Notes: generated from the letters alone by a model not told the origin. A DNA stretch of 64,000 nt from Cytophagales bacterium (GCA_013298505.1 JAAFHY010000003.1:35733-99732), one strand, 5' to 3'. Counted from the first letter of the stretch, positions 1,547 to 64,000 are shown. Numbers and translations are program-made.

Positions 1547-2380
1547 TTATTTCAGTACACTCAAAAAAGCAGAGCCGAGATTATCAGCAATATTTTTGCG
1601 GTACTTGGCACTCTTGCGATATTCGTCTGTTAAAAATTCTTTCCACACGGCATCCCAATCGCTTTGCTTCGCCATTACAAAAGCCAATTCTTCGGGCTTG
1701 CCAAATTCGATAGCTTGTTTTTTAAGCGGCAGTTTTTTGCGATTGGCATCGACAAATTCGGTAAAATCTAAAATCGTAAACAACTTAGGGTTGGAACTCA
1801 TTTTTTTGAAAATCTCTGGCCCCGATATTCCCGAAGAAATGGAAAGCTCGGGCCAATAATCGTTTTTAATTTTGTTGGCATGTTTGATGTGCGTGCTTCC
1901 GCCAATAATTTCTATGCTATAACCACTAAACGATTTTTTAATTTGCGATAGGTCGGCAATGTTTGGTGCATCTTTGTGCGTAACCATTACCACCGAATTA
2001 GACATAAACGGAGGTGTAAATTTTAGTATTCTTTTGCGTTCTTCTGTAACAGTAACATTGGTTACACCTAGCACATTCGCATTGTTTTGCGAGGTGGCCA
2101 AGAAATTTGCAAATACAGGCTCTTTGCCGATATAGTTAATGGTAAGTTTCTTTCCGTATTTCGTTTGAACAAACGCTACAAAATCTTCTAATACATCTAC
2201 ACACAACCCCGTGGGCTTTCCATTGCTATCTTGAATAAGCCCTGCTTGTTCGTAATACACAACCGAGAGCGCACCGCCCGAAGATTTTACTTTTGCCCAG
2301 CTATCGCCCCCTTTGCCTTGAGCAAAAAGCAAAACGCTAACAAGATGCAATACAATAGATAATAGAATCTTCCTTTTCAT
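1547..2380 (-). CDS. Stand-alone substrate-binding protein (SBP family 3, amino-acid type)
   Basis: Signal peptide; PTGLCVDVLEDF and NVTVTEERKRILKFTPPF motifs typical of SBP_bac_3. Confidence 0.75.
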   Translation of the reverse strand: MKRKILLSIVLHLVSVLLFAQGKGGDSWAKVKSSGGALSVVYYEQAGLIQDSNGKPTGLCVDVLEDFVAFVQTKYGKKLTINYIGKEPVFANFLATSQNNANVLGVTNVTVTEERKRILKFTPPFMSNSVVMVTHKDAPNIADLSQIKKSFSGYSIEIIGGSTHIKHANKIKNDYWPELSISSGISGPEIFKKMSSNPKLFTILDFTEFVDANRKKLPLKKQAIEFGKPEELAFVMAKQSDWDAVWKEFLTDEYRKSAKYRKNIADNLGSAFLSVLK

Positions 2381-2464
2381 ATCCTTTCAATTTTTAGTAA
2401 TATTAATAACACCGCCCGAAAATTAATCAGGCAATTCAAGAATAATATTACACCAATGTTATTT

Positions 2465-2839
2465 TTAAGAAAGATGAGTCCGCACCAATTTTTTATCTAG
2501 CCATTGGACAACGACAATCAATAGAGCAGCTAAAGCTAAAAGACCAGGATAGCCCGCTAAGAACCGCAACGCACCCCAGCTAAGATTAAAGTCAATGAGA
2601 AAAATAGAAACGCCAGTTCCAATCAAAAAGGAAACCCAGCCCGCAGCCAACCAAAAATATTCTTTAAACAAAGATGCCGGCCGCTGCTGAAGTTTTGCCA
2701 TTACCTTATCTGCAAAACCAATTGGCAAGTGGTAAGCATCTTTTCGTAATGCACTAAATACTTTTTGGTAAGCGAGGGCATCGGCTCCTTTGGGCACTTC
2801 GCCATTTTCTATTTTTTGTTGCAGTTGTTGGTCAGTCAT
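2465..2839 (-). CDS. Small membrane protein, probable anti-sigma factor
   Basis: ATGA overlap with the ECF sigma stop; LPIGFADKVM motif then two hydrophobic helices. Confidence 0.6.
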   Translation of the reverse strand: MTDQQLQQKIENGEVPKGADALAYQKVFSALRKDAYHLPIGFADKVMAKLQQRPASLFKEYFWLAAGWVSFLIGTGVSIFLIDFNLSWGALRFLAGYPGLLALAALLIVVVQWLDKKLVRTHLS

Positions 2840-3399
2840 GGCTCTATTTCTTTACCAAGATAGTTCTTTACTTTTTCTTTTAAAATATTCCGCGCCCTAA
2901 AAAGATAGTTCTTCACGGTTCCTTCGGGCATATTCGTAATCTCTCCAATTTCTTGATAGTTCATGTGGTTGAGGTGGTACAAGGTAAGCACCGTCTTGTA
3001 TTGGGCTGGTAAGTAATCGATCATCTTCAACACCATTTCCTCCAATTGTTGGTCGCCCAACTCTTCATCTACTTTTTCGTTCGAGACAAACTCACGTTGA
3101 AATCCGTCTTCGTTGGGCAAATCGGCAAACATCATTTTTTGCTTGCGCAGATGATTAATGGCATGCCGATAGGCCACAGTTGCAATCCACGTGCTTAGTT
3201 TCGACTCAAAATTAAAACCACCAATTTTGTCGTACACTTTCAAAAATACATCTTGGCAGATTTCTTCGCGGTCCTCATCGCTTTTTATCAATCGCGCCAC
3301 CATGTGCCCCACCAACCGTTGATGTTGATGAATCAATTGCCTAAAAGCCTGCGAATCGCCTTGAATTATGCGGGAAACCAGCTCCCGATCGTCTGTCAT
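2836..3399 (-). CDS. ECF RNA polymerase sigma-70 factor
   Basis: Region 2 (EEICQDVFLKVY, KLSTWIATVAYR) and region 4 (YQEIGEITNMPEGTVKNYLFRAR); ATG at 3399 preferred over GTG 3414. Confidence 0.93.
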   Translation of the reverse strand: MTDDRELVSRIIQGDSQAFRQLIHQHQRLVGHMVARLIKSDEDREEICQDVFLKVYDKIGGFNFESKLSTWIATVAYRHAINHLRKQKMMFADLPNEDGFQREFVSNEKVDEELGDQQLEEMVLKMIDYLPAQYKTVLTLYHLNHMNYQEIGEITNMPEGTVKNYLFRARNILKEKVKNYLGKEIEP

Positions 3400-3405
3400 T
3401 AGTGG

Positions 3406-3436
3406 GTTAGACACAAGTCGAAGGTACGATGTTGCA
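3406..3436 (-). promoter_or_regulatory. Putative ECF promoter for the sigma gene (TGCAAC...GTCTAA)
   Basis: Minus strand tgcaacatcgtaccttcgacttgtgtctaac; 25/31 identical to the divergent copy at 3554-3584. Confidence 0.6.
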
Positions 3437-3553
3437 GGTAATATTTTGGGTTGTAGATTTCGATGCCGTTGGCCTCAGGCTTCATGCCACAAGCTGCAAG
3501 CTGAGCAGAATTCCTCTAAAGGACTACCTCGAAATATTTTTTTTCCGATCAAG

Positions 3554-3584
3554 TGCAACATCATGCCTTCACCTTGCGTCTCAC
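3554..3584 (+). promoter_or_regulatory. Putative ECF promoter for the DUF6249 gene (TGCAAC...CGTCT)
   Basis: tgcaacatcatgccttcaccttgcgtctcac; matches the divergent copy at 3406-3436. Confidence 0.6.
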
Positions 3585-3611
3585 GCCTCAACATCAACAA
3601 AACAAACGACT

Positions 3612-3959
3612 ATGAATACCAATGAATTATTAATGCCCGTTTCGATTTTAGGTAGCCTTGGCCTATCTATCTATTTCTTCACAAAGGTGATGACCGACTA
3701 CATTCTGAAAAAGAAAATGATTGACAAGGGTTTTGTGAACGAGGACACCCAAGCGATTTTTAAAAACTATAAGGAGGACGATAACAAGTATGCTTCTTTG
3801 AAGTGGGGCTTGATTGCATTCTTCGCGGGGCTATCGCTTATCATTATGGAGTATGTGCCAGTAAGCCCCGATTCGCCCATGCCCTATGGATTATTTGCCG
3901 TGGCGGTATCGTTCGGTTTTTTGCTTTACTATTTTTTGGTAAAGAGAGAAACTAAATAG
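3612..3959 (+). CDS. DUF6249-like small membrane protein
   Basis: ATG 3612; N-terminal TM, YASLKWGLIAFFAGL motif, C-terminal TMs; divergent from the ECF sigma. Confidence 0.65.
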   Translation: MNTNELLMPVSILGSLGLSIYFFTKVMTDYILKKKMIDKGFVNEDTQAIFKNYKEDDNKYASLKWGLIAFFAGLSLIIMEYVPVSPDSPMPYGLFAVAVSFGFLLYYFLVKRETK

Positions 3960-4005
3960 AATAACAGAACTATTTCTTATAGGTTGAGCCCATCGGCCAG
4001 GGATA

Positions 4006-4121
4006 CCTGCCTGCACTGCCGCTTCGGCAGGCAGGGAAGTGGAAAGCCCGCTAAGGGTTGGTGTATGCACGGAGCGGACTTGTAACGGATAGCCCGGTGG
4101 CCACTTCGCTTCGAGTGGCCA
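4006..4121. repeat. Structured intergenic repeat element (REP/Flavo-1-like)
   Basis: CCTGCCTGC..GGCAGGCAGG palindrome (4006-4035), two GGA[A/T]AGCCCG boxes (4041-4050, 4087-4096), perfect hairpin TGGCCACT/AGTGGCCA (4098-4121). Confidence 0.5.
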
Positions 4122-4167
4122 GGCCGCCAGGTAAAAATCAAACTAAAATTTACTAAGCCAAAAATTT

Positions 4168-6588
4168 ATGTTCCAAAATTATCTCAAGACAGCTCTTAGA
4201 AGCTTGCTGCGCCATCGTTTTTTTTCAGCTATCAATATTTTTGGCTTGGCGGTGGCGATGGCTTTGTCGATGGTTATTATCATGCTGGTGGCCGACCAAA
4301 TGACGTACGATCGGTACAACACCAAGCGCGACCGCGTCTATCGCATCAATGCAGTTCCTGAAGGCTCGGATGGAGAATCGCTCAATGAATACGCGACTAC
4401 CACATTGCCATTGAAGCAAGAACTTCTAGATAATCATACAGGTGTAGAGAAGGCCGTGCGCATTATGCGGGGCTTCGGCAACTTATGGCTGGAGATGGAA
4501 CAAAACGTGAACATCCCAATTGCAGGATATTATGCGGATGCAGAGATCTTAGATGTATTCGAATATGAATTGGAATATGGTGACTCGCGCACAGCATTGG
4601 TAGAACCCTACTCCGTAGTGCTTACTAAAAAGGCTGCTAAGAAATTATTCAAGCAGGAGAACCCCATTGGTGAAGTTTTTAAAGTAGGCGAAGAAGGGCC
4701 TTACAAAGTGACAGGTATATTAAAAGAGACGAAAAACAAATCGCACATTCCATTTGAAGCGCTAGCAAGTATCAGCTCGGTAAAAAGTTTAGAGGCTCAA
4801 AATAAGCAGGGCAAACAATTAGACAATTGGTACAATTACACAGCGGGCTGGGTGTATGTACTGCTTGAAAAAGGCAAGCAACCAAAAGACATACAAGCAG
4901 CGCTCACAAAAATTGAACAAAAGCATTTTACCACACTTCCAAACCCGGATACCCAACGAAAAGTAAAATACACGCTTCAGCAATTGATGAACATTACTCC
5001 AGGCCCTTTCCTCAACAACATGATTGGGCCATTTCTTCCTTGGATTTTTGTGTACTTCTTCATTGGCCTGGCGGGTGTGGTGATGCTTACCTCTTGTTTT
5101 AATTTTACCAATTTATCCATCGCGCGATCATTGACACGTGCCCGTGAGATTGGTGTACGCAAAGTAACGGGGGCTATGCGCAGTCAGGTATTTGTTCAGT
5201 TTTTATCAGAGTCAGTGATGGTGGCTTTGCTTGCGCTTGGATTGGCACTGGTGATGCTGGTTGCTTTAAAACCGTTGATGCTTCAATTGAGCTTAGCGCG
5301 AATGCTGCGATGGGATTTAGAAGCTAACTATGTGGTGTACGCGGTGTTTTTTGTGTTCGCTATTGCGGTGGGCATTCTTGCCGGAATTTTTCCCGCAGTA
5401 GTGCTGAGCGGTTTTCAACCAGCAAAAGTGCTGAAGGGCTTAAGCTCTATGAAACTTTTTTCTGGCATGCGCTTGCGCAAAACATTATTGGTAACGCAGT
5501 TCACGTTCTCACTCATCTTTATTCTTTCGGTTATTGTGGTATACAATCAATTGCAGTTGTTCCTCCGTGCAGATCATGGATTTAATATGGAAAAGAAAAT
5601 TGTGGTTGGGACGAGCAGCGCTTCTGCATCAGTACTAAAGACTGAGCTGTTGAAATACAGTAACATCGAAAATGTATCGGCTGTCTCGCATGTGCTGGCT
5701 GCCGGCTCTACCTATGGCGAGAGTTATAAAAAATCGCTTGAAGATAAAGAGTGGACAGATTTAAGTTACTACTCTGCCGATGAAGATTATCTCAAGAATT
5801 TGGAAGTCCCTATGGTGGCCGGAAGGTATTTTAAGGACGCAGATGGAGCATCCAACAAAAATCTGATAGTGCTTAATGAAAAAGCAGTTGAAAGTTTTCA
5901 TTTCGATTCGCCTTTAGATGCGATTGGACAAGAAATCATTATACAAAAAGATTCATCGCGCAAGCAAATCATTGGTGTGGTGAAGAATTACAATCACCAA
6001 ATGATAATGGATAAAATGGGGCCAATGGCGTTGATTCATAACCCAGAAGAATACCAACTGCTACAAATAAAGTATTCTGGCACCTATGAAGAGGCAGGCA
6101 AAAGTGTTGAAACAGCCTGGGCGCAGGTAAATCCTACCTTGAAAGTTGATTACAAAGATTTCTCTGGAGAGGTGCATAAACTCTATGATATTCTCTTTGG
6201 CGATTTGGTGGGTTTACTGGGCGTGATTTCCTTTCTCGCCATTACCATTTCTTGTTTGGGCTTGCTCGGTATGGCTACTTATTCAACTGAAACGCGTTTA
6301 AAAGAAATTTCTATTCGCAAAGTGCTGGGCAGTAGCAATGGTTCATTGATCTATTTGCTATCAAAAGGCTTCGTCAGTATTTTGCTTATCGCGATTGTAT
6401 TGGCCGTACCATCAGCGTACATCATCAACAACTTATGGCTGGAGCAATTGGCGTATCACGTTTCCGTAGATGTGTGGACTATTTTAGTTGGAGTACTCGC
6501 TTTGATTATTTTCAGTGGCTTAACGATTGGCTCGCAAACATGGAGAGCAGTGTTTGTTAATCCAGTGGATAATTTGAAGGGGGAGTAA
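4168..6588 (+). CDS. ABC transporter permease, MacB/FtsX family
   Basis: MFQNYLKTALRSL start, NFTNLSIARSLTRAREIGVRK and RLKEISIRKVLGS repeats, NPVDNLKGE end. Confidence 0.92.
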   Translation: MFQNYLKTALRSLLRHRFFSAINIFGLAVAMALSMVIIMLVADQMTYDRYNTKRDRVYRINAVPEGSDGESLNEYATTTLPLKQELLDNHTGVEKAVRIMRGFGNLWLEMEQNVNIPIAGYYADAEILDVFEYELEYGDSRTALVEPYSVVLTKKAAKKLFKQENPIGEVFKVGEEGPYKVTGILKETKNKSHIPFEALASISSVKSLEAQNKQGKQLDNWYNYTAGWVYVLLEKGKQPKDIQAALTKIEQKHFTTLPNPDTQRKVKYTLQQLMNITPGPFLNNMIGPFLPWIFVYFFIGLAGVVMLTSCFNFTNLSIARSLTRAREIGVRKVTGAMRSQVFVQFLSESVMVALLALGLALVMLVALKPLMLQLSLARMLRWDLEANYVVYAVFFVFAIAVGILAGIFPAVVLSGFQPAKVLKGLSSMKLFSGMRLRKTLLVTQFTFSLIFILSVIVVYNQLQLFLRADHGFNMEKKIVVGTSSASASVLKTELLKYSNIENVSAVSHVLAAGSTYGESYKKSLEDKEWTDLSYYSADEDYLKNLEVPMVAGRYFKDADGASNKNLIVLNEKAVESFHFDSPLDAIGQEIIIQKDSSRKQIIGVVKNYNHQMIMDKMGPMALIHNPEEYQLLQIKYSGTYEEAGKSVETAWAQVNPTLKVDYKDFSGEVHKLYDILFGDLVGLLGVISFLAITISCLGLLGMATYSTETRLKEISIRKVLGSSNGSLIYLLSKGFVSILLIAIVLAVPSAYIINNLWLEQLAYHVSVDVWTILVGVLALIIFSGLTIGSQTWRAVFVNPVDNLKGE

Positions 6589-59227: not shown

Positions 59228-60019
59228 ATGGTTACTATTCTAGGAATTCCTTTCGATGCCAACTCGTCTTTTCTGCAAGGGGGTGCACAAGCTCCTGCCA
59301 GAATACGGTTAATGGAAGCAGAAGGCTCGGCCAATTTATTTTCTGAGTTAGGTAACGAAATTAAAAATGGAGTTGCTTACCAAGACAGGGGTGATCTGTT
59401 TTTTGAGACGACAGACTCGACCAAGGCCTTTTCAATAATCAAGGATGCTATTGCGAAAGAATTAAAAACATCGACTAAGATTTTATCGCTTGGAGGAGAT
59501 CATTCCATTTCTTATCCGATCATTGATGCCTTTACGGAAAAGTATGAAAACCTAAATGTATTGCACATTGATGCGCATGGCGATTTGTATGACAATTTTG
59601 ATGACAACCCCTATTCGCACGCATCGCCTTTTGCGCGGTTGATGGAAAAAGAAAAAGTGGGCTCGCTAACTCAAGTGGGCATTCGTTGCTCTACTGCGCA
59701 CTTGCGCGAGCAAGTGAAAAGATTCAATGTAAAGGTGGTGGAGATGAAGGATTTCAATTTTGATTTTATTCAGCACTTGAAAGAACCTCTTTACATTTCG
59801 TTGGATATTGATTCACTCGATCCTGCCTTTGCGCCTGGGGTCTCGCATCATGAACCTGGTGGTTTATCTACCCGTCAATTGATTGAGATCATCCATCAAA
59901 TACAAGTTTCGATAGTAGGTGCAGATATTGTTGAATACAATCCCGTTCGGGATATCCACGACATGACAGCTATGGTCTGCTATAAACTCATGAAAGAATT
60001 GATTCATAAAATGAATTAA
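59228..60019 (+). CDS. Agmatinase/arginase family ureohydrolase
   Basis: LGGDHS, HIDAHGD, SHASPF, SLDIDSLDP, DIVEYNP. Confidence 0.9.
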   Translation: MVTILGIPFDANSSFLQGGAQAPARIRLMEAEGSANLFSELGNEIKNGVAYQDRGDLFFETTDSTKAFSIIKDAIAKELKTSTKILSLGGDHSISYPIIDAFTEKYENLNVLHIDAHGDLYDNFDDNPYSHASPFARLMEKEKVGSLTQVGIRCSTAHLREQVKRFNVKVVEMKDFNFDFIQHLKEPLYISLDIDSLDPAFAPGVSHHEPGGLSTRQLIEIIHQIQVSIVGADIVEYNPVRDIHDMTAMVCYKLMKELIHKMN

Positions 60020-60054
60020 TTCCTTATCAAATATTTGTTTGATTTTTTGAAACC

Positions 60055-60076
60055 TTAATCGTAATATTACGATTAA
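60055..60076. promoter_or_regulatory. Putative ArsR operator 1
   Basis: Perfect 22-bp palindrome TTAATCGTAATATTACGATTAA 6 nt before the arsR ATG. Confidence 0.8.
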
Positions 60077-60082
60077 TAGCGC

Positions 60083-60409
60083 ATGGGACTTACCAAGACA
60101 GAAGAATTTACCAAAACACAAAACGAAGTGGCCAATTTGGCGAAAGCCTTGGGGCATCCGGCACGCATTGCCATTTTGCAATACTTGATTAAAACCAAGT
60201 CGTGTGTATGTGGTGACATTGTAGATGAGTTGCCATTATCTCAATCAACCGTGTCGCAACATTTGAGTGAATTGAAAAAAGCGGGTTGGATAACAGGAAA
60301 CATTGAAGGGCCGAGTGTGTGCTACTGCATTGATGAAAAATCGTGGAGCAAAGCAAAAAAGACTTTGATAGGATTACTTGAAAGCTACGAAGGCACCAAT
60401 TGTTGCTGA
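60083..60409 (+). CDS. arsR: ArsR family As(III)-responsive repressor
   Basis: KALGHPARIAIL, SCVCGDIV, LSQSTVSQHL, C-terminal CC. Confidence 0.9.
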   Translation: MGLTKTEEFTKTQNEVANLAKALGHPARIAILQYLIKTKSCVCGDIVDELPLSQSTVSQHLSELKKAGWITGNIEGPSVCYCIDEKSWSKAKKTLIGLLESYEGTNCC

Positions 60410-60430
60410 ACTATTTTTTTGACCTAATCC

Positions 60431-60446
60431 ATCGCAATATTACGAT
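60431..60446. promoter_or_regulatory. Putative ArsR operator 2
   Basis: ATCGCAATATTACGAT, one mismatch to the operator 1 core, upstream of arsM. Confidence 0.7.
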
Positions 60447-60483
60447 AAGCAAAAAGTAGATTACAAACTAAAAGACAAAAATT

Positions 60484-61320
60484 ATGCAAACGAACGAAGA
60501 ACTAAAACAACTGGTCAAAGAAAAATACGGCCAAATTGCCGAGCAAAGCAAAACGGAGAATGAATCGAGTTGCTGCGGAGCAACTGGTTGCGCTACCATC
60601 GACTACACCGTGATGTCTGATGATTACACCAAACTAGAAGGGTATTTAGCCGATGCCGATTTAGGATTGGGCTGCGGACTGCCTACAGAATTTGCACAAA
60701 TCAAAGAAGGCGACACCGTTGTTGATTTAGGCTCAGGTGCGGGCAACGATGCTTTTGTAGCGCGCTCGATTGTAGGAGAGAAAGGAAAAGTAATCGGCAT
60801 TGACTTTACGGATAAAATGATTGAGAAGGCTCGTGCCAATGCCAAGAAGTTAAATTTCACGAATGTGGAATTCCGCCAAGGTGATATTGAGAACATGCCG
60901 TTGGCCGGAAACATAGCCGATGTGGTGGTGAGCAATTGTGTGTTGAACCTCGTGCCTGATAAAAAACAAGCTTTTGCAGAAACGTTTCGCGTGTTGAAGA
61001 AAGGCGGTCACTTCAGTGTATCGGATATTGTGCTCGTGGGCGATTTGCCAGAAGGCCTGCAAAAAAGTGCAGAGATGTATGCAGGTTGTGTGTCTGGTGC
61101 CATTCAAAAAGTGGAATACTTGTCGATAATTAAAGAAGCTGGATTCAATAATATTGACATCCAAAAAGAAAAGCGCATTACTTTGCCCGATGAAATTTTG
61201 AAAGAATATTTGTCGCCCAAAGCCTTGGAGGATTTCAAAACAGGTGAGTCCGGAATTTTCAGCATCACTGTATATGCAGAAAAACCTGATGCATGTTGCG
61301 GCCCGGGATGTTGTAATTAA
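60484..61320 (+). CDS. arsM: Arsenite S-adenosylmethionine methyltransferase
   Basis: LGLGCGLP, VVDLGSGAGND, ISNC-type VSNCVLNL, YAGCVSGA; Cys-rich termini. Confidence 0.92.
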   Translation: MQTNEELKQLVKEKYGQIAEQSKTENESSCCGATGCATIDYTVMSDDYTKLEGYLADADLGLGCGLPTEFAQIKEGDTVVDLGSGAGNDAFVARSIVGEKGKVIGIDFTDKMIEKARANAKKLNFTNVEFRQGDIENMPLAGNIADVVVSNCVLNLVPDKKQAFAETFRVLKKGGHFSVSDIVLVGDLPEGLQKSAEMYAGCVSGAIQKVEYLSIIKEAGFNNIDIQKEKRITLPDEILKEYLSPKALEDFKTGESGIFSITVYAEKPDACCGPGCCN

Positions 61321-61323
61321 ATC

Positions 61324-61388
61324 GACTTCGTGTCTTGGTGTCTTTGTGGCATGTAAAGTCAGGCCACCAAGACACGAAGTCACAAAGA
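61324..61388. repeat. Palindromic repeat hairpin between arsM and arsC-like gene
   Basis: Perfect 17-bp IR gacttcgtgtcttggtg (61324-61340) / caccaagacacgaagtc (61365-61381). Confidence 0.75.
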
Positions 61389-61414
61389 AATAGTAAAATA
61401 CCGAATACAATTTT

Positions 61415-62032
61415 ATGCTTAATCCTACACTTCAATCAACCATTGAAAATCTCATTCTCCAATTTGGTCAAATACCAACGGAGAGAAAAGAGTTATTGAA
61501 TGAACTAACACGATTCATTCGGCAATCGCCTAAAGGTCAATCCATCTACCTAAACTTTATCTGTACGCACAATTCACGCAGAAGCCACATCGCTCAACTT
61601 TGGGCGCAGGCTGCTGCTTATCATTTCGGTGTAAAAGATATTGTCAGCCTTTCAGGCGGCACGGAGGCGACTGCTTTCAATCCACGTGCCGTGAGGGCGA
61701 TGCAGGGTGTTGGTTTTCAAATTTCAGTAACCAAAAATGGCGACAATCCTTTGTATGAAGTGAAGTATGCCAACGATGCAGCACCCGTTGAAGCGTTTTC
61801 AAAAAAGTATGATGCCCCGTTTAACAACAACCCAGGCTTTGCAGCGATTATGACTTGCTCCCATGCCGATGAAAACTGTCCACTGGTATTGGGAGCGAAA
61901 GCCCGGATTGCTATCACTTACGATGACCCCAAAGAATTTGACGGCACTCCGATGGAATCTGCCAAGTATGCGGAACGCGTACAGCAAATCGGGCGAGAGA
62001 TGTTATTTGCCTTTTCACAAGTAAAAAAATAA
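61415..62032 (+). CDS. arsC: LMW-PTP-fold arsenate reductase-like protein
   Basis: CX5R loop CTHNSRR, SGGTEATAFN, MTCS..CP, YDDPK; inside the ars operon. Confidence 0.7.
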   Translation: MLNPTLQSTIENLILQFGQIPTERKELLNELTRFIRQSPKGQSIYLNFICTHNSRRSHIAQLWAQAAAYHFGVKDIVSLSGGTEATAFNPRAVRAMQGVGFQISVTKNGDNPLYEVKYANDAAPVEAFSKKYDAPFNNNPGFAAIMTCSHADENCPLVLGAKARIAITYDDPKEFDGTPMESAKYAERVQQIGREMLFAFSQVKK

Positions 62033-62057
62033 TTGAAGTGTACCAAAAAAATACATT

Positions 62058-62960
62058 GTGAAAAAATCAATCCTCTACATTTTCATTTTGCTGATTTCGC
62101 CATTGTTTTTATTTGCCCAAAAATCCAAAGACAAAATGCAGCGCGAACTTACTCCTGCACGTGGGCATTACGAGCAATTGCAGAAATTCAGCACGAAGCC
62201 ATCAACCATCAATGCCGAAGTTGACCAACTTACTTTTCCATACGACCCAATAGTGGGTGAACGCAGGTTGAGTATTAAGCCGAGTTATTTGCAAAACGTA
62301 AAAACGGATGATTTCAACCTTCCCGAAATGCCTACTAACAGTTCAGAGCAAACACGCATGGAATTGAATTACTTGCTAGGATTGCAAAAGCAACGTACGC
62401 CTGAAGATGTCCGCAGTAGTCTCTTCATGGCAAACGTGTATTATAATCTCCGTGTGAAGCCAACGGATTCAACCTACGTACGCTTTCGCAGAAACTTGTT
62501 TTTCATCGGTCGCTCCATCGGCACTTGGTTTCATCCAGACAGTCTTCCTAAAACAGCTAATCTCATCGCTAGCGTGTGGCAAGACGCAAATTATTTTATT
62601 TGGACACTTAAGTTTAAGTACGCTCGCGTTCGTCCTGTCAAGATTGACCCTTCTATTAAAAATCTTGAGGTGACAGATTGGGCCGCATACCCAAGTGGTC
62701 ATGCCGCCAACTCCTACATCAACGCTTACATTTATCAAGAATTAGCACCCGAGTTCACCGACTTCTTTATCAAAGATGCTTACGACATGGCGCATTCGCG
62801 CGAAATCATTGGCGTGCATTTCCCCAGCGACTCCGAGTCATCTCGAATTTTTGCGAGACAGTTCGTGAACAAATTATTTCAAAATGAAAAATTTCTAAAA
62901 GAGTTTGAGGAGGTAAAAAAAGAATGGGCAGAAAAGGCGAAAGAGAAATTTGAAAGATAG
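62058..62960 (+). CDS. Secreted PAP2-superfamily acid phosphatase / haloperoxidase-fold protein
   Basis: Signal peptide; KFKYARVRP (KX6RP), YPSGHA, SREIIGVHFPSD (SRX5HX3D). Confidence 0.85.
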   Translation: MKKSILYIFILLISPLFLFAQKSKDKMQRELTPARGHYEQLQKFSTKPSTINAEVDQLTFPYDPIVGERRLSIKPSYLQNVKTDDFNLPEMPTNSSEQTRMELNYLLGLQKQRTPEDVRSSLFMANVYYNLRVKPTDSTYVRFRRNLFFIGRSIGTWFHPDSLPKTANLIASVWQDANYFIWTLKFKYARVRPVKIDPSIKNLEVTDWAAYPSGHAANSYINAYIYQELAPEFTDFFIKDAYDMAHSREIIGVHFPSDSESSRIFARQFVNKLFQNEKFLKEFEEVKKEWAEKAKEKFER

Positions 62961-62981
62961 ATGGTAAGACATGCTCATCTA

Positions 62982-63012
62982 GTCACTTGGTTGTGCAAAA
63001 CAATCAAGTGAC
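62982..63012. terminator. Hairpin between convergent PAP2 and GNAT genes
   Basis: gtcacttggttg / caatcaagtgac stem. Confidence 0.55.
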
Positions 63013-63022
63013 CTCTTTATTA

Positions 63023-63517
63023 TTAGTCGATACCAACTAAAGAACTTCTCCTCTCTAACAGCACTGTATCACGCCACACGTTTTTCATCTTACCTATTTT
63101 CTCTCGGTAGCCTACTTTCCTAAAACCACACTGCTCATGAATCTTTAGGCTCGCTGCATTTTCTGGAAAGATACCAGCTTGCAGCGTCCATAAGTTTTCT
63201 TTCTCGCTTTCGCGGATGAGTGCTCCCAATAATTTTTTACCCACACCTTTGCCTGTCGCGTCAGGGTGTACATAAACACTTACTTCTGCCACGCCTGCAT
63301 AAACACATCTGCCAGATACGGCTGTTAAGGCTGCCCAACCAATTACATTTTCATTTTCGTCCATTGCCACTAGCCGCGCCTTTTCTAAATGTGCCTTGTC
63401 CCAACTTTCCCATGTGGGTGCAGATGTTTCAAAAGTAGCATTTCCAGTAGCGATGCCCAGTTCGTAAATCTTCTTTAATGCAGCATAGTGCGCAGGTTGA
63501 AGGGATGAGATTTTCAT
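63023..63517 (-). CDS. Phosphinothricin-acetyltransferase-like GNAT (ArsN-like)
   Basis: ATFET, AEVSVYV, QAGIFPENAASL, GFRKVG, WRDTVLLERRS. Confidence 0.85.
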   Translation of the reverse strand: MKISSLQPAHYAALKKIYELGIATGNATFETSAPTWESWDKAHLEKARLVAMDENENVIGWAALTAVSGRCVYAGVAEVSVYVHPDATGKGVGKKLLGALIRESEKENLWTLQAGIFPENAASLKIHEQCGFRKVGYREKIGKMKNVWRDTVLLERRSSLVGID

Positions 63518-63616
63518 TTCATAAAAATAATAAATCCAGTCGCACGGCCGACATCGTATATTTAATCTGTGATTAAAAATTGATTACTTTTAGCAGATAA
63601 AAAAACGAAGCCCTAC

Positions 63617-63952
63617 ATGGAACACACCTACTACAACCCCGAAGACTTAAAGAAATTTGGAAATATTCGCGAATGGGAGAAAAACTTGGCTGATAAGTTT
63701 TTCTCGTATTATGGGGATGTATTTAAAGAAGGCGACCTCACGGCCCGCGAAAAATCATTGATTGCCCTTGCTGTAGCACACACCGTGCAATGCCCCTATT
63801 GCATCGATGCCTATACGCAAGACTCACTGGAGAAAGGTGCTACCGAAAAGGCCATGATGGAAGCCATCCACGTAGCAGCCGCCATCCGCGGAGGTGCATC
63901 ATTAGTGCATGGGGTGATGATGATGAATAAAGCCAAGAAACTCTCAATGTAA
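63617..63952 (+). CDS. CMD/AhpD peroxidase-like protein of the type associated with arsenosugar radical-SAM genes
   Basis: YYNPEDLKKFG, REKSLIALAVAHTVQCPYCIDAY, AIRGGASLVHGV. Confidence 0.85.
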   Translation: MEHTYYNPEDLKKFGNIREWEKNLADKFFSYYGDVFKEGDLTAREKSLIALAVAHTVQCPYCIDAYTQDSLEKGATEKAMMEAIHVAAAIRGGASLVHGVMMMNKAKKLSM

Positions 63953-64000
63953 ATTCGTTGTTGGTTGGTCGTTAGTCGTTGTTCGCAACCTCCAACCACC

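What the first reader, a model, noticed from the sequence alone, without database searches (positions are those of the whole stretch)
60083..64000. Organoarsenical (arsenosugar-type) biosynthetic locus rather than a plain ars resistance operon
Seen: arsR-arsM-arsC-like-PAP2 phosphatase, a convergent ArsN-like acetyltransferase, and a divergent CPYC-containing CMD/AhpD gene at the window edge; no acr3/arsB/arsP efflux gene in view. Established: ArsM methylates As(III); in Synechocystis ArsM plus the radical-SAM enzyme ArsS start arsenosugar synthesis; this CMD family (TIGR04169-type, by recall) normally lies next to arsS-type genes. Inference: arsS follows just beyond base 64000, and reduction, methylation, adenosylation, a phosphatase step and acetylation form a route to arsenosugars, arsenolipids or another organoarsenical in a heterotrophic Cytophagales bacterium. 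The PAP2+GNAT combination is not one I recognise from described clusters.
Basis: partly seen in the sequence, partly recalled or inferred. Interest (0 to 1): 0.75.

Follow-up and report, generated by a model that had tools for sequence, protein, structure and literature searches.

The report
Arsenic detox operon beside arsenosugar cluster
The window ends in an ordinary arsenic-inducible detoxification operon that happens to abut the first gene of a separate, already-catalogued arsenosugar (ArsS) gene cluster; the one fresh point is a secreted acid phosphatase that regularly travels with arsenic operons.

Summary
The last one, a complete CPYC-containing CMD gene, is a firm member of the "arsenosugar biosynthesis-associated peroxidase-like" family (TIGR04169).

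arsS cannot be seen, because the window stops 48 nt after the CMD stop codon. It is very probably next. ArsS lies directly downstream of CMD in 70 of 74 informative related loci. The colinear relative L006 continues CMD-ArsS-arsenosugar-type ArsM-creatininase-family-PNP. The window's last 48 nt align with the CMD-arsS spacer of L085.

The single-pathway reading is not supported; the evidence points to two separable modules:
- **arsR-arsM-arsC-like-PAP2 (+arsN1-like):** an ArsR-operator-controlled detoxification unit that occurs alone elsewhere (L086).
- **CMD-arsS cluster:** it carries its own dedicated ArsM, has no ArsR operator, and usually occurs without the ars block (L007 and L016 have agmatinase directly followed by CMD).

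PAP2 is a signal-peptide-bearing class A acid phosphatase. Its homologues sit with ars genes in 48 of 82 independent loci and never with CMD/ArsS.

Both modules are known kinds. The ars-linked PAP2, often paired with a SigZ-like sigma factor, appears undescribed and is the modestly novel part.

The parts
59228..60019 (+). Agmatinase gene. It is a housekeeping flank and serves as the synteny anchor.
   Evidence: TIGR01230, 195 bits against a cut-off of 174. In L007 and L016 this gene is followed directly by CMD. In L085 it lies between the ars block and CMD.
60055..60076 (.). ArsR operator O1, the perfect 22-bp palindrome TTAATCGTAATATTACGATTAA, 7 nt upstream of the arsR start codon.
   Evidence: It occurs once in the window, against 0.01 expected by chance. 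The 16-bp core is identical upstream of arsR in L006, L085, L086, L089, L091, L096, L108/109 and L129. Its role as an operator is inferred.
60083..60409 (+). arsR, an ArsR/SmtB-type metalloregulator with C41-V-C43.
   Evidence: NF033788 65.7 bits, above its cut-off of 55; Pfam HTH_5. Motif positions.
60431..60446 (.). Second operator copy O2 (ATCGCAATATTACGAT, 1 mismatch), between arsR and arsM.
   Evidence: The same O1/O2 pair flanks arsR in L006, L085, L086, L088, L089, L091, L092, L096, L108/109 and in the distant L079.
60484..61320 (+). arsM, an As(III) S-adenosylmethionine methyltransferase of the general (detoxification) type.
   Evidence: NF008823 361.4 bits against a cut-off of 263. 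NF038099 (arsenosugar ArsM) only 96.6 bits against a cut-off of 400. Aligns with solved ArsM 5EVJ/4FS8; query Cys64, Cys152 and Cys202 align with cysteines in 5EVJ.
61324..61381 (.). Intra-operon hairpin between arsM and the arsC-like gene: a perfect 17-bp stem with a 24-nt loop.
   Evidence: It is unique in the window. Function unknown; a possible attenuator or RNA-stability element.
61415..62032 (+). Divergent LMW-PTP-type arsenate reductase candidate (205 aa). It has a roughly 45-aa N-terminal extension and an internal insertion.
   Evidence: Partial arsC_pI258 hit, residues 47-107. Alignment to B. subtilis ArsC 1JL3 conserves C50-X5-R56, C148-X6-C155 and D170-D171-P172. It has the same position in L006, L085, L086, L088, L089 and L108.
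62058..62960 (+). Secreted class A (PAP2) acid phosphatase, the last gene of the operon.
   Evidence: Signal peptide MKKSILYIFILLISPLFLFA|QK. Motifs K185-X6-R192-P193, P212-S-G-H215 and S247-R-X5-H254-X3-D258 are invariant in 30 homologues. AlphaFold2 model pLDDT 77.7; Foldseek top hits are acid phosphatases 7F17 (TM 0.81), PhoN and PhoC. It is ars-linked in 48 of 82 independent loci.
63023..63517 (-). ArsN1-like GNAT N-acetyltransferase, convergent on PAP2 and divergent from CMD.
   Evidence: NF040503 (ArsN1 family A) 138.6 bits, below its cut-off of 170; Pfam Acetyltransf_1. It recurs near PAP2 and ars genes in 11 loci.
63518..63616 (.). 99-bp divergent intergenic region between arsN and CMD. 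It contains no ArsR operator.
   Evidence: No match to the operator at up to 3 mismatches. It contains a small TTAATC-N3-GATTAA palindrome shared only with L006.
63617..63952 (+). Complete CMD/AhpD-type gene with C59-P-Y-C62, the first gene of the arsenosugar-type cluster.
   Evidence: TIGR04169 189.4 bits against a cut-off of 120. 8000 or more homologues exist. ArsS lies directly downstream in 70 of 74 informative loci.
63953..64000 (+). The first 48 nt of the CMD-arsS spacer.
   Evidence: It aligns with the L085 spacer, which ends in the ArsS start codon (ATGATTAAAAGTCTTCACG) about 40 nt further on.

Best explanation
The region holds two adjacent but separable arsenic modules.

**Module 1 (60055-63517).** This is an As(III)-inducible detoxification unit without a pump.
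- ArsR (CVC site) sits on two palindromic operators flanking its own gene and is released by As(III).
- The LMW-PTP-type ArsC-like enzyme reduces arsenate.
- ArsM methylates As(III) to less retained or volatile methylarsenicals.
- The last gene exports a class A acid phosphatase to the periplasm. Most plausibly it frees phosphate from organic esters to offset arsenate/phosphate competition. This step is inferred.
- The convergent ArsN1-like acetyltransferase would inactivate an amino-acid-type organoarsenical such as arsinothricin.

**Module 2 (from 63617, continuing past the window).** This is the start of a catalogued arsenosugar-type cluster.
- The CPYC CMD protein is followed by the radical-SAM enzyme ArsS, which adds 5'-deoxyadenosyl to DMAs(III).
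- In this clade the cluster continues with a dedicated ArsM, a creatininase-family protein and a purine-nucleoside phosphorylase. The phosphorylase is a plausible adenine-removing step.

Module 1 may feed As(III)/DMAs(III) to module 2, but it is not part of module 2.
For: -
- Colinearity of the window (59516-63950) with L006 comes. L006 continues CMD-ArsS (TIGR04167, 450 bits)-ArsM (NF038099, 564 bits)-creatininase-PNP.
- ArsS lies directly downstream of CMD in 70 of 74 loci. The window's tail aligns with the L085 CMD-arsS spacer.
- Modularity: arsR-arsM-arsC-PAP2 occurs alone in L086. Agmatinase is followed directly by CMD in L007 and L016. The ars block lies on the other side of agmatinase in L085. 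Only 2 of 60 CMD loci have ars-block genes upstream, and 0 of 82 PAP2 loci have CMD/ArsS.
- The operator pair O1/O2 is conserved around arsR and is absent before CMD.
- ArsC catalytic residues come; conserved ArsM cysteines.
- ArsS chemistry (DMAs(III) to DDMAA, adenine then removed) is taken from PMC13598754 and bioRxiv 10.64898/2026.04.29.721666.
- Low-coverage contigs in the same biofilm runs that hold the window match L006 ArsS, ArsM2 and PNP at about 80-87% identity. That equals the window's divergence from L006, which is consistent but not linked evidence.
Against: - arsS itself is not in the window, and the window's own contig could not be retrieved.
- Adjacency of the two modules recurs: in the window, L006 and L085, and independently in L079, where CMD-ArsS-two glycosyltransferases-ArsR-ArsM-Acr3 lie together. 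Some selected coupling therefore cannot be excluded.
- The ArsC-like and ArsN-like proteins score below the curated NCBIfam cut-offs.
- The role of PAP2 is inference only.
- Absence of the known operator does not exclude indirect co-regulation.
- The neighbourhood counts come from tblastn at fixed thresholds. Many contigs are short and some are redundant (for example L108 and L109).
Confidence: 0.8

Rival explanations
1. One reading: all seven genes plus arsS form one biosynthetic route (reduce, methylate, adenosylate, dephosphorylate with PAP2, acetylate with the GNAT) to a new organoarsenical.
For: - Physical adjacency is conserved in the window, L006 and L085.
- An ars operon also abuts CMD-ArsS in L079.
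- If the cluster-linked PNP makes an arsenoribose-1-phosphate, a phosphatase step would be needed (inference).
Against: - PAP2 carries a signal peptide and has a periplasmic class A fold.
- PAP2 homologues are ars-linked without CMD/ArsS in 82 of 82 independent loci.
- The ArsS cluster has its own ArsM.
- There is no ArsR operator before CMD.
- The modules are found apart in L086, L007 and L016.
- The GNAT's best match is a resistance enzyme family.
Confidence: 0.1
2. The CMD gene is an orphan here: no arsS follows, and the locus is only a plain ars operon next to an unrelated redox gene.
For: Four of 74 informative CMD loci lack ArsS within 1.5 kb downstream (L019, L024, L029, L070). The window ends before the question can be settled.
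Against: - All close relatives (CMD 88% identity or more) with downstream sequence have ArsS.
- The window's tail aligns with a CMD-arsS spacer.
- The colinear relative L006 has ArsS.
Confidence: 0.05
3. An arsinothricin-type antibiotic production and self-resistance island (ArsM plus ArsN1).
For: An ArsN1-like GNAT is present. ArsM has a weak hit to the arsinothricin-type ArsM model (141.6 bits).
Against: - No ArsL-type radical SAM gene is present in the window.
- The arsinothricin ArsM model is far below its cut-off of 500.
- ArsN1-like genes are common resistance passengers in ars operons (PMC6205960).
Confidence: 0.03

Closest known systems
Synechocystis sp. PCC 6803 arsM-arsS arsenosugar pathway, and the NCBIfam arsenosugar set (TIGR04167 ArsS, TIGR04169 peroxidase-like, NF038099 ArsM, TIGR04282/TIGR04283 glycosyltransferases)
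   Same: - The CMD gene passes TIGR04169.
- Syntenic relatives carry ArsS (TIGR04167) and an NF038099 ArsM directly downstream.
- The expected chemistry is DMAs(III) plus a 5'-deoxyadenosyl radical giving DDMAA.
   Different: - The host is a heterotrophic Cytophagales bacterium, not a cyanobacterium.
- Only the CMD gene lies in the window.
- In this clade no TIGR04282/04283 glycosyltransferases lie within 10 kb. A purine-nucleoside phosphorylase and often a creatininase-family gene follow instead.
- The product is unknown.
Canonical ArsR-controlled ars resistance operons (arsR-arsC-acr3/arsB, with arsM, arsN and other passengers)
   Same: - A CVC-type ArsR with palindromic operators.
- A general-type ArsM.
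- A thioredoxin-type ArsC-like reductase.
- An ArsN-like GNAT.
   Different: - No Acr3 or MIP gene anywhere in the 64-kb window; ArsB, ArsP and ArsK were not queried.
- The operon ends in a secreted PAP2 acid phosphatase. This gene is not among the ars genes reviewed in PMC6205960, where 'phosphatase' occurs 0 times.
Class A non-specific acid phosphatases (PhoN, PhoC, P. aeruginosa acid phosphatase 7F17)
   Same: All three PAP2 motifs, a signal peptide, and the fold (TM 0.81 to 7F17).
   Different: - About 90 extra N-terminal residues.
- 28% identity or less to solved enzymes.
- Embedded in ArsR-operator-controlled operons, and often preceded by a SigZ-like ECF sigma factor with a Cys-rich tail.
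ArsN1 arsinothricin N-acetyltransferase (NF040503)
   Same: It is the best-matching family and aligns over the full length, residues 11-156.
   Different: The score of 138.6 bits is below the curated cut-off of 170. The substrate is untested.

Membership tests
Arsenosugar biosynthesis cluster (ArsS system) | CMD/AhpD-type protein of family TIGR04169 with a CxxC motif | tested here: met
   189.4 bits against a cut-off of 120; C59-P-Y-C62.
Arsenosugar biosynthesis cluster (ArsS system) | Radical-SAM ArsS (TIGR04167, Radical_SAM + DUF3641) encoded in the cluster | not testable with these tools
   The window ends 48 nt after the CMD stop codon, and its own contig was not retrievable. Indirect evidence: ArsS follows CMD in 70 of 74 related loci; L006 ArsS scores 450 bits; the window's tail aligns with a CMD-arsS spacer.
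Arsenosugar biosynthesis cluster (ArsS system) | Dedicated arsenosugar-type ArsM (NF038099) | tested here: not met
   The window's ArsM scores 96.6 bits against a cut-off of 400 and is the NF008823 type. L006 and L085 carry a separate NF038099 ArsM downstream of ArsS; for the window this region lies outside the sequence.
Arsenosugar biosynthesis cluster (ArsS system) | TIGR04282/TIGR04283 arsenosugar glycosyltransferases nearby | tested here: not met
   No tblastn hit in the window or in the 10-kb flanks of the closest relatives L001-L011 and L085. Such hits are present next to CMD-ArsS in 41 and 23 more distant loci respectively.
Arsenosugar biosynthesis cluster (ArsS system) | Production of DDMAA or arsenosugars | not testable with these tools
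   This requires arsenic speciation in a culture or a heterologous host.
ArsR-regulated ars detoxification operon | ArsR/SmtB repressor with an As(III)-binding cysteine site and a cognate palindromic operator | tested here: met
   NF033788 65.7 bits, above its cut-off of 55; C41-V-C43. The O1/O2 palindromes are conserved across many loci. Binding itself was not tested.
ArsR-regulated ars detoxification operon | As(III) methyltransferase with conserved cysteines | tested here: met
   NF008823 361 bits against a cut-off of 263. Cys64, Cys152 and Cys202 align with cysteines of solved ArsM 5EVJ.
ArsR-regulated ars detoxification operon | Arsenate reductase | tested here: inconclusive
   The catalytic CX5R loop, the Cys148/Cys155 pair and DDP are conserved against 1JL3. 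However, the protein scores 49.7 bits against a cut-off of 174 and has no Pfam LMWPc hit.
ArsR-regulated ars detoxification operon | Arsenite or methylarsenite efflux permease (Acr3, ArsB, ArsP, ArsK) | tested here: not met
   No Acr3 or MIP homologue anywhere in the 64-kb window. ArsB, ArsP and ArsK were not queried. Related ars-PAP2 loci sometimes do carry Acr3 (L089, L108, L123).
Class A acid phosphatase (PAP2 superfamily) | KX6RP, PSGH and SRX5HX3D motifs, a secreted soluble protein, and the class A fold | tested here: met
   The motifs are invariant. A signal peptide is visible by inspection. Foldseek gives TM 0.81 to 7F17. Pfam PAP2 scores 24.1 bits, slightly under the gathering score of 27.2.
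ArsN1 arsinothricin N-acetyltransferase | Score above the NF040503/NF040504 cut-off | tested here: not met
   138.6 bits against 170, and 78.7 bits against 210. It is a relative of the family, not a certified member.

The most novel reading that the evidence does not exclude
The ars-linked PAP2 family is a new, ArsR-regulated arsenic-resistance determinant. In the window it is the last gene of the operon. In 34 other loci it is paired with a SigZ-like ECF sigma factor that carries a Cys-rich tail. Under this reading it is a periplasmic enzyme that either counters arsenate by liberating phosphate or acts directly on arsenate/arsenosugar-phosphate esters. In this Cytophagales clade it would have been drawn next to a glycosyltransferase-less, PNP-containing variant of the ArsS cluster that makes a non-classical organoarsenical.
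Probability: 0.4. Interest if true: 0.55.

Novelty: new variant of a known kind. Interest (0 to 1): 0.4.

Why it matters
The headline claim, a new organoarsenical pathway, reduces to two known modules lying side by side. The arsenosugar part would be labelled automatically by current NCBI family models.

Two things remain worth a specialist's attention.

No paper in the searchable library discusses arsS in this phylum. The clade around this window replaces the glycosyltransferases with a nucleoside phosphorylase, which offers a testable candidate for the unassigned adenine-removal step after DDMAA.

Second, a secreted class A acid phosphatase is a regular member of ArsR-operator-controlled operons. 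It is not in the reviewed catalogue of ars genes. If confirmed, it would link phosphate scavenging to arsenic defence.

Tried and rejected
- **Retrieving the window's own contig.** Exact-protein look-ups for CMD and for the window's PAP2 gene call (P0121, on a 111,094-nt contig) returned nothing. What lies past base 64000 could therefore not be read.
- **SRA contigs.** The organism is present at only about 2-3x in four biofilm metagenome runs, as fragments of 150-800 nt. None usefully extends the window. Laying the same runs on L006 ArsS/ArsM2/PNP gave fragments of matching depth and divergence, but without physical linkage.
- **L005.** This locus has the closest CMD (98% identity) but is not syntenic upstream, so it could not be used to extend the window.
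- **ArsR operator before CMD.** None was found at up to 3 mismatches, so co-regulation by this site is rejected.
- **Glycosyltransferases, Acr3, MIP, ArsO, ArsS.** None was found elsewhere in the window.
- **Arsinothricin biosynthesis.** Rejected: there is no ArsL, and the arsinothricin-type ArsM model scores far below its cut-off.
- **Vanadium haloperoxidase reading of PAP2.** Rejected as the primary fold match, with E-values of 0.02 or worse and TM at or below 0.46, compared with class A phosphatases at 7e-8.
- **Composition.** The profile shows no G+C anomaly that would mark the ars block as a recent import.
- **Literature.** Searches for PAP2 or acid phosphatase in ars operons, and for arsS in Bacteroidota, found nothing relevant.

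Full report
**Observation**

The ORF map of 59-64 kb shows seven genes:
- agmatinase, 59228-60019 (+)
- arsR, 60083-60409 (+)
- arsM, 60484-61320 (+)
- a 205-aa LMW-PTP-like gene, 61415-62032 (+)
- a 300-aa PAP2 gene, 62058-62960 (+)
- a GNAT, 63023-63517 (-)
- a 111-aa CMD gene, 63617-63952 (+)

The window ends 48 nt after the CMD stop codon. Profile searches gave the following.
- ArsR: NF033788 65.7 bits, above its cut-off of 55.
- ArsM: NF008823 361 bits, above 263. It scores only 96.6 bits against the arsenosugar-ArsM model NF038099, whose cut-off is 400.
- ArsC-like: a partial arsC_pI258 hit only, and no Pfam hit.
- PAP2: Pfam 24.1 bits, just under the gathering score.
- GNAT: closest to ArsN1 family A, at 138.6 bits against 170.
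- CMD: TIGR04169, 'arsenosugar biosynthesis-associated peroxidase-like protein', 189.4 bits against 120.

The CMD gene is complete rather than truncated.

**Residue-level checks**

- ArsR has C41-V-C43.
- ArsM aligns with solved ArsM structures, and Cys64, Cys152 and Cys202 align with cysteines of 5EVJ.
- The ArsC-like protein aligns in two blocks with B. subtilis ArsC 1JL3. It keeps C50-X5-R56, C148-X6-C155 and DDP. It is therefore a plausible thioredoxin-type arsenate reductase with an N-terminal extension and an insertion.
- The PAP2 protein begins with a typical signal peptide (MKKSILYIFILLISPLFLFA|QK). It keeps KX6RP, PSGH and SRX5HX3D, all invariant across 30 homologues.
- An AlphaFold2 model of PAP2 (pLDDT 77.7) matches periplasmic class A acid phosphatases: 7F17 at TM 0.81, then PhoN and PhoC. 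It does not match vanadium haloperoxidases or membrane lipid phosphatases comparably.

**Does arsS follow?**

The window's own contig could not be fetched. I therefore used relatives.

The three closest CMD proteins on long metagenomic contigs (92-93% identity) are each followed at once by a Radical_SAM+DUF3641 gene. A scan of representative genomes returned 80 CMD loci. Across all 85 CMD loci, 70 of the 74 with at least 1.5 kb downstream have ArsS directly downstream on the same strand.

One locus, L006 (a Cyclobacteriaceae MAG), is colinear with the window from agmatinase to CMD at about 72-83% nucleotide identity. It continues as follows:
- ArsS (TIGR04167, 450 bits)
- arsenosugar-type ArsM (NF038099, 564 bits)
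- a creatininase-family protein
- a purine-nucleoside phosphorylase

The window's final 48 nt align with the CMD-arsS spacer of L085. That spacer ends in the conserved ArsS start about 40 nt further on.

Low-coverage contigs from the same biofilm runs that hold the window match L006's ArsS, ArsM2 and PNP at the divergence expected for this organism. They are not physically linked to the window. I put the probability that arsS follows at about 0.95.

**One pathway or two modules?**

Comparative evidence separates the modules.
- L007 and L016 have agmatinase directly followed by CMD-ArsS, with no ars block.
- L085 has the ars block on the other side of agmatinase.
- L086 has arsR-arsM-arsC-like-PAP2 alone between gldD and ileS, with no GNAT and no CMD/ArsS.
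- L087 has PAP2 beside a divergent arsR-glyoxalase-GNAT-LMWPc operon.
- Of 60 CMD loci with at least 4 kb upstream, only L006 and L085 carry ars-block genes there.

An independent metagenome scan with PAP2 gave 80 further loci. None has CMD or ArsS. Of the 82 independent PAP2 loci counted, 48 have ars genes (17 of the 22 with at least 3 kb on both sides).

Clustering of all neighbours within 6 kb of PAP2 gave these counts, in loci:

| Neighbour family | Loci |
|---|---|
| SigZ-like ECF sigma factor with a Cys-rich C-terminus | 38 |
| LMWPc ArsC | 32 |
| ArsR | 28 |
| ArsM | 24 |
| ArsN-like GNAT | 11 |
| ArsO | 9 |
| MIP | 5 |
| Acr3 | 4 |

PAP2 is thus a regular passenger of ars resistance operons. 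It is not a companion of ArsS.

**Regulation**

A perfect 22-bp palindrome, TTAATCGTAATATTACGATTAA, lies 7 nt upstream of arsR (60055-60076). It occurs once in the window, against 0.01 expected by chance. A one-mismatch copy lies between arsR and arsM (60431-60446). The same pair flanks arsR in L006, L085, L086 and many PAP2 loci, and even in the Chitinophagales locus L079.

In eight loci the motif sits just upstream of the SigZ-like gene that precedes PAP2; six of these (L093, L098, L105, L106, L113, L122) have no arsR nearby. This ties PAP2 to the ArsR regulon. No copy (up to 3 mismatches) lies in the 99-bp arsN-CMD intergenic region or anywhere else in the window. That the motif is the operator is an inference from position and conservation.

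**Mechanism**

Shown by sequence: an ArsR-type switch, a general ArsM, a reductase-like LMW-PTP, a secreted class A phosphatase and an ArsN1-like GNAT. Neither Acr3 nor MIP is present in 64 kb; other pump families (ArsB, ArsP, ArsK) were not queried.

Inferred: As(III) releases ArsR. Arsenate is reduced and As(III) is methylated, so detoxification proceeds by methylation and volatilisation rather than by an Acr3-type pump. PAP2 in the periplasm liberates phosphate, which competes with arsenate for uptake. The GNAT acetylates an arsinothricin-like toxin.

For module 2, the published chemistry is that ArsS adds 5'-deoxyadenosyl to DMAs(III) to give DDMAA, after which the adenine is removed. The recurrent PNP next to ArsS is found in 21 of 61 loci with at least 5 kb downstream, in both orientations. 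By analogy with MTA phosphorylase it is a natural candidate for the adenine-removal step; this is inference. Module 1 can supply As(III)/DMAs(III), but the ArsS cluster has its own ArsM.

**Comparison and novelty**

Both modules are known kinds, and NCBI's family models would name CMD and ArsS automatically.

Differences from the described systems:
- the host phylum
- the lack of TIGR04282/04283 glycosyltransferases near ArsS in this clade, whereas they flank ArsS in 41 and 23 more distant loci
- an ars operon that ends in a secreted PAP2 phosphatase, with no Acr3 in view

The 2018 review of ars genes does not mention any phosphatase. Literature searches found no PAP2-ars link and no discussion of arsS in Bacteroidota.

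The adjacency of ars operon and ArsS cluster recurs: in the window, L006 and L085, and independently in L079 with arsR-arsM-acr3. This is consistent with arsenic genes clustering into islands, and it leaves room for substrate channelling. It does not make PAP2 or the GNAT pathway enzymes.

**Verdict**

The arsS prediction is very likely right. The integrated 'new organoarsenical route' is not supported. Interest is moderate to low for the headline claim, with a modestly novel side finding in the ars-linked PAP2/SigZ pair.

Noticed in passing
window 62058-62960; loci L086-L167: Homologues of the PAP2 gene (45-85% identity) are embedded in ars operons in many metagenomic contigs. In 34 loci a SigZ-like ECF sigma factor with a Cys-rich C-terminal tail (...CEDRVPCSCPENI) lies immediately upstream. 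In 8 of 31 informative cases the ArsR-type operator lies within 200 nt upstream of that sigma gene. The window lacks the sigma gene.
   Followed up: partly
L005:1879-1894 (Ohtaekwangia MAG): An exact copy of the 16-bp ArsR operator core sits just upstream of a TonB-dependent receptor gene (2022-4841), which is followed by a 587-aa secreted protein. This is about 8 kb upstream of CMD-ArsS. Similar receptor/beta-helix pairs precede the cluster in L001 and L004, and a TonB-dependent OMP lies inside the cluster in L085. This hints at an arsenic-regulated outer-membrane transporter.
   Followed up: no
window 61324-61381: A perfect 17-bp inverted repeat with a 24-nt loop lies between arsM and the arsC-like gene. 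It is unique in the window. It could be an intra-operon attenuator, an RNA stabiliser or a small inserted element.
   Followed up: partly
L001-L009, L085 versus L012-L083: There are two flavours of CMD-ArsS cluster. The window's clade has PNP, with or without a creatininase-family gene and the arsenosugar ArsM, and no glycosyltransferases within 10 kb. Many other Bacteroidota have TIGR04282 (CofC-like) and TIGR04283 (GT2) genes next to ArsS. A route of PNP, then nucleotidyltransferase, then GT2 would make a coherent path from DDMAA to glycosides.
   Followed up: partly
L079:466-7000 (Chitinophagales MAG): The order is CMD-ArsS-TIGR04282 GT-(reverse) TIGR04283 GT-ArsR-ArsM-Acr3-metallophosphoesterase-rhodanese. 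Here an arsenosugar cluster is fused to a pump-containing ars operon, with the same operator pair around arsR.
   Followed up: partly
L019, L024, L029, L070: Four CMD (TIGR04169-like) loci, two of them from Bdellovibrionales MAGs, have no ArsS within 1.5 kb downstream. They may be orphan or differently organised copies.
   Followed up: no
window 63560-63590 and L006 4410-4440: A small palindrome, TTAATC-N3-GATTAA, lies in the arsN-CMD divergent intergenic region. It reuses the outer half-sites of the ArsR operator with a 3-bp spacer instead of a 10-bp one. It is shared only with L006, so its conservation is uninformative.
   Followed up: no
window 60000-64000: The sequence is present at about 2-3x word depth in Logan contigs of four biofilm-metagenome runs from one 2020 study, and faintly in a 2024 riverine metagenome. 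The source is therefore an uncultured freshwater or biofilm Cytophagales population.
   Followed up: partly
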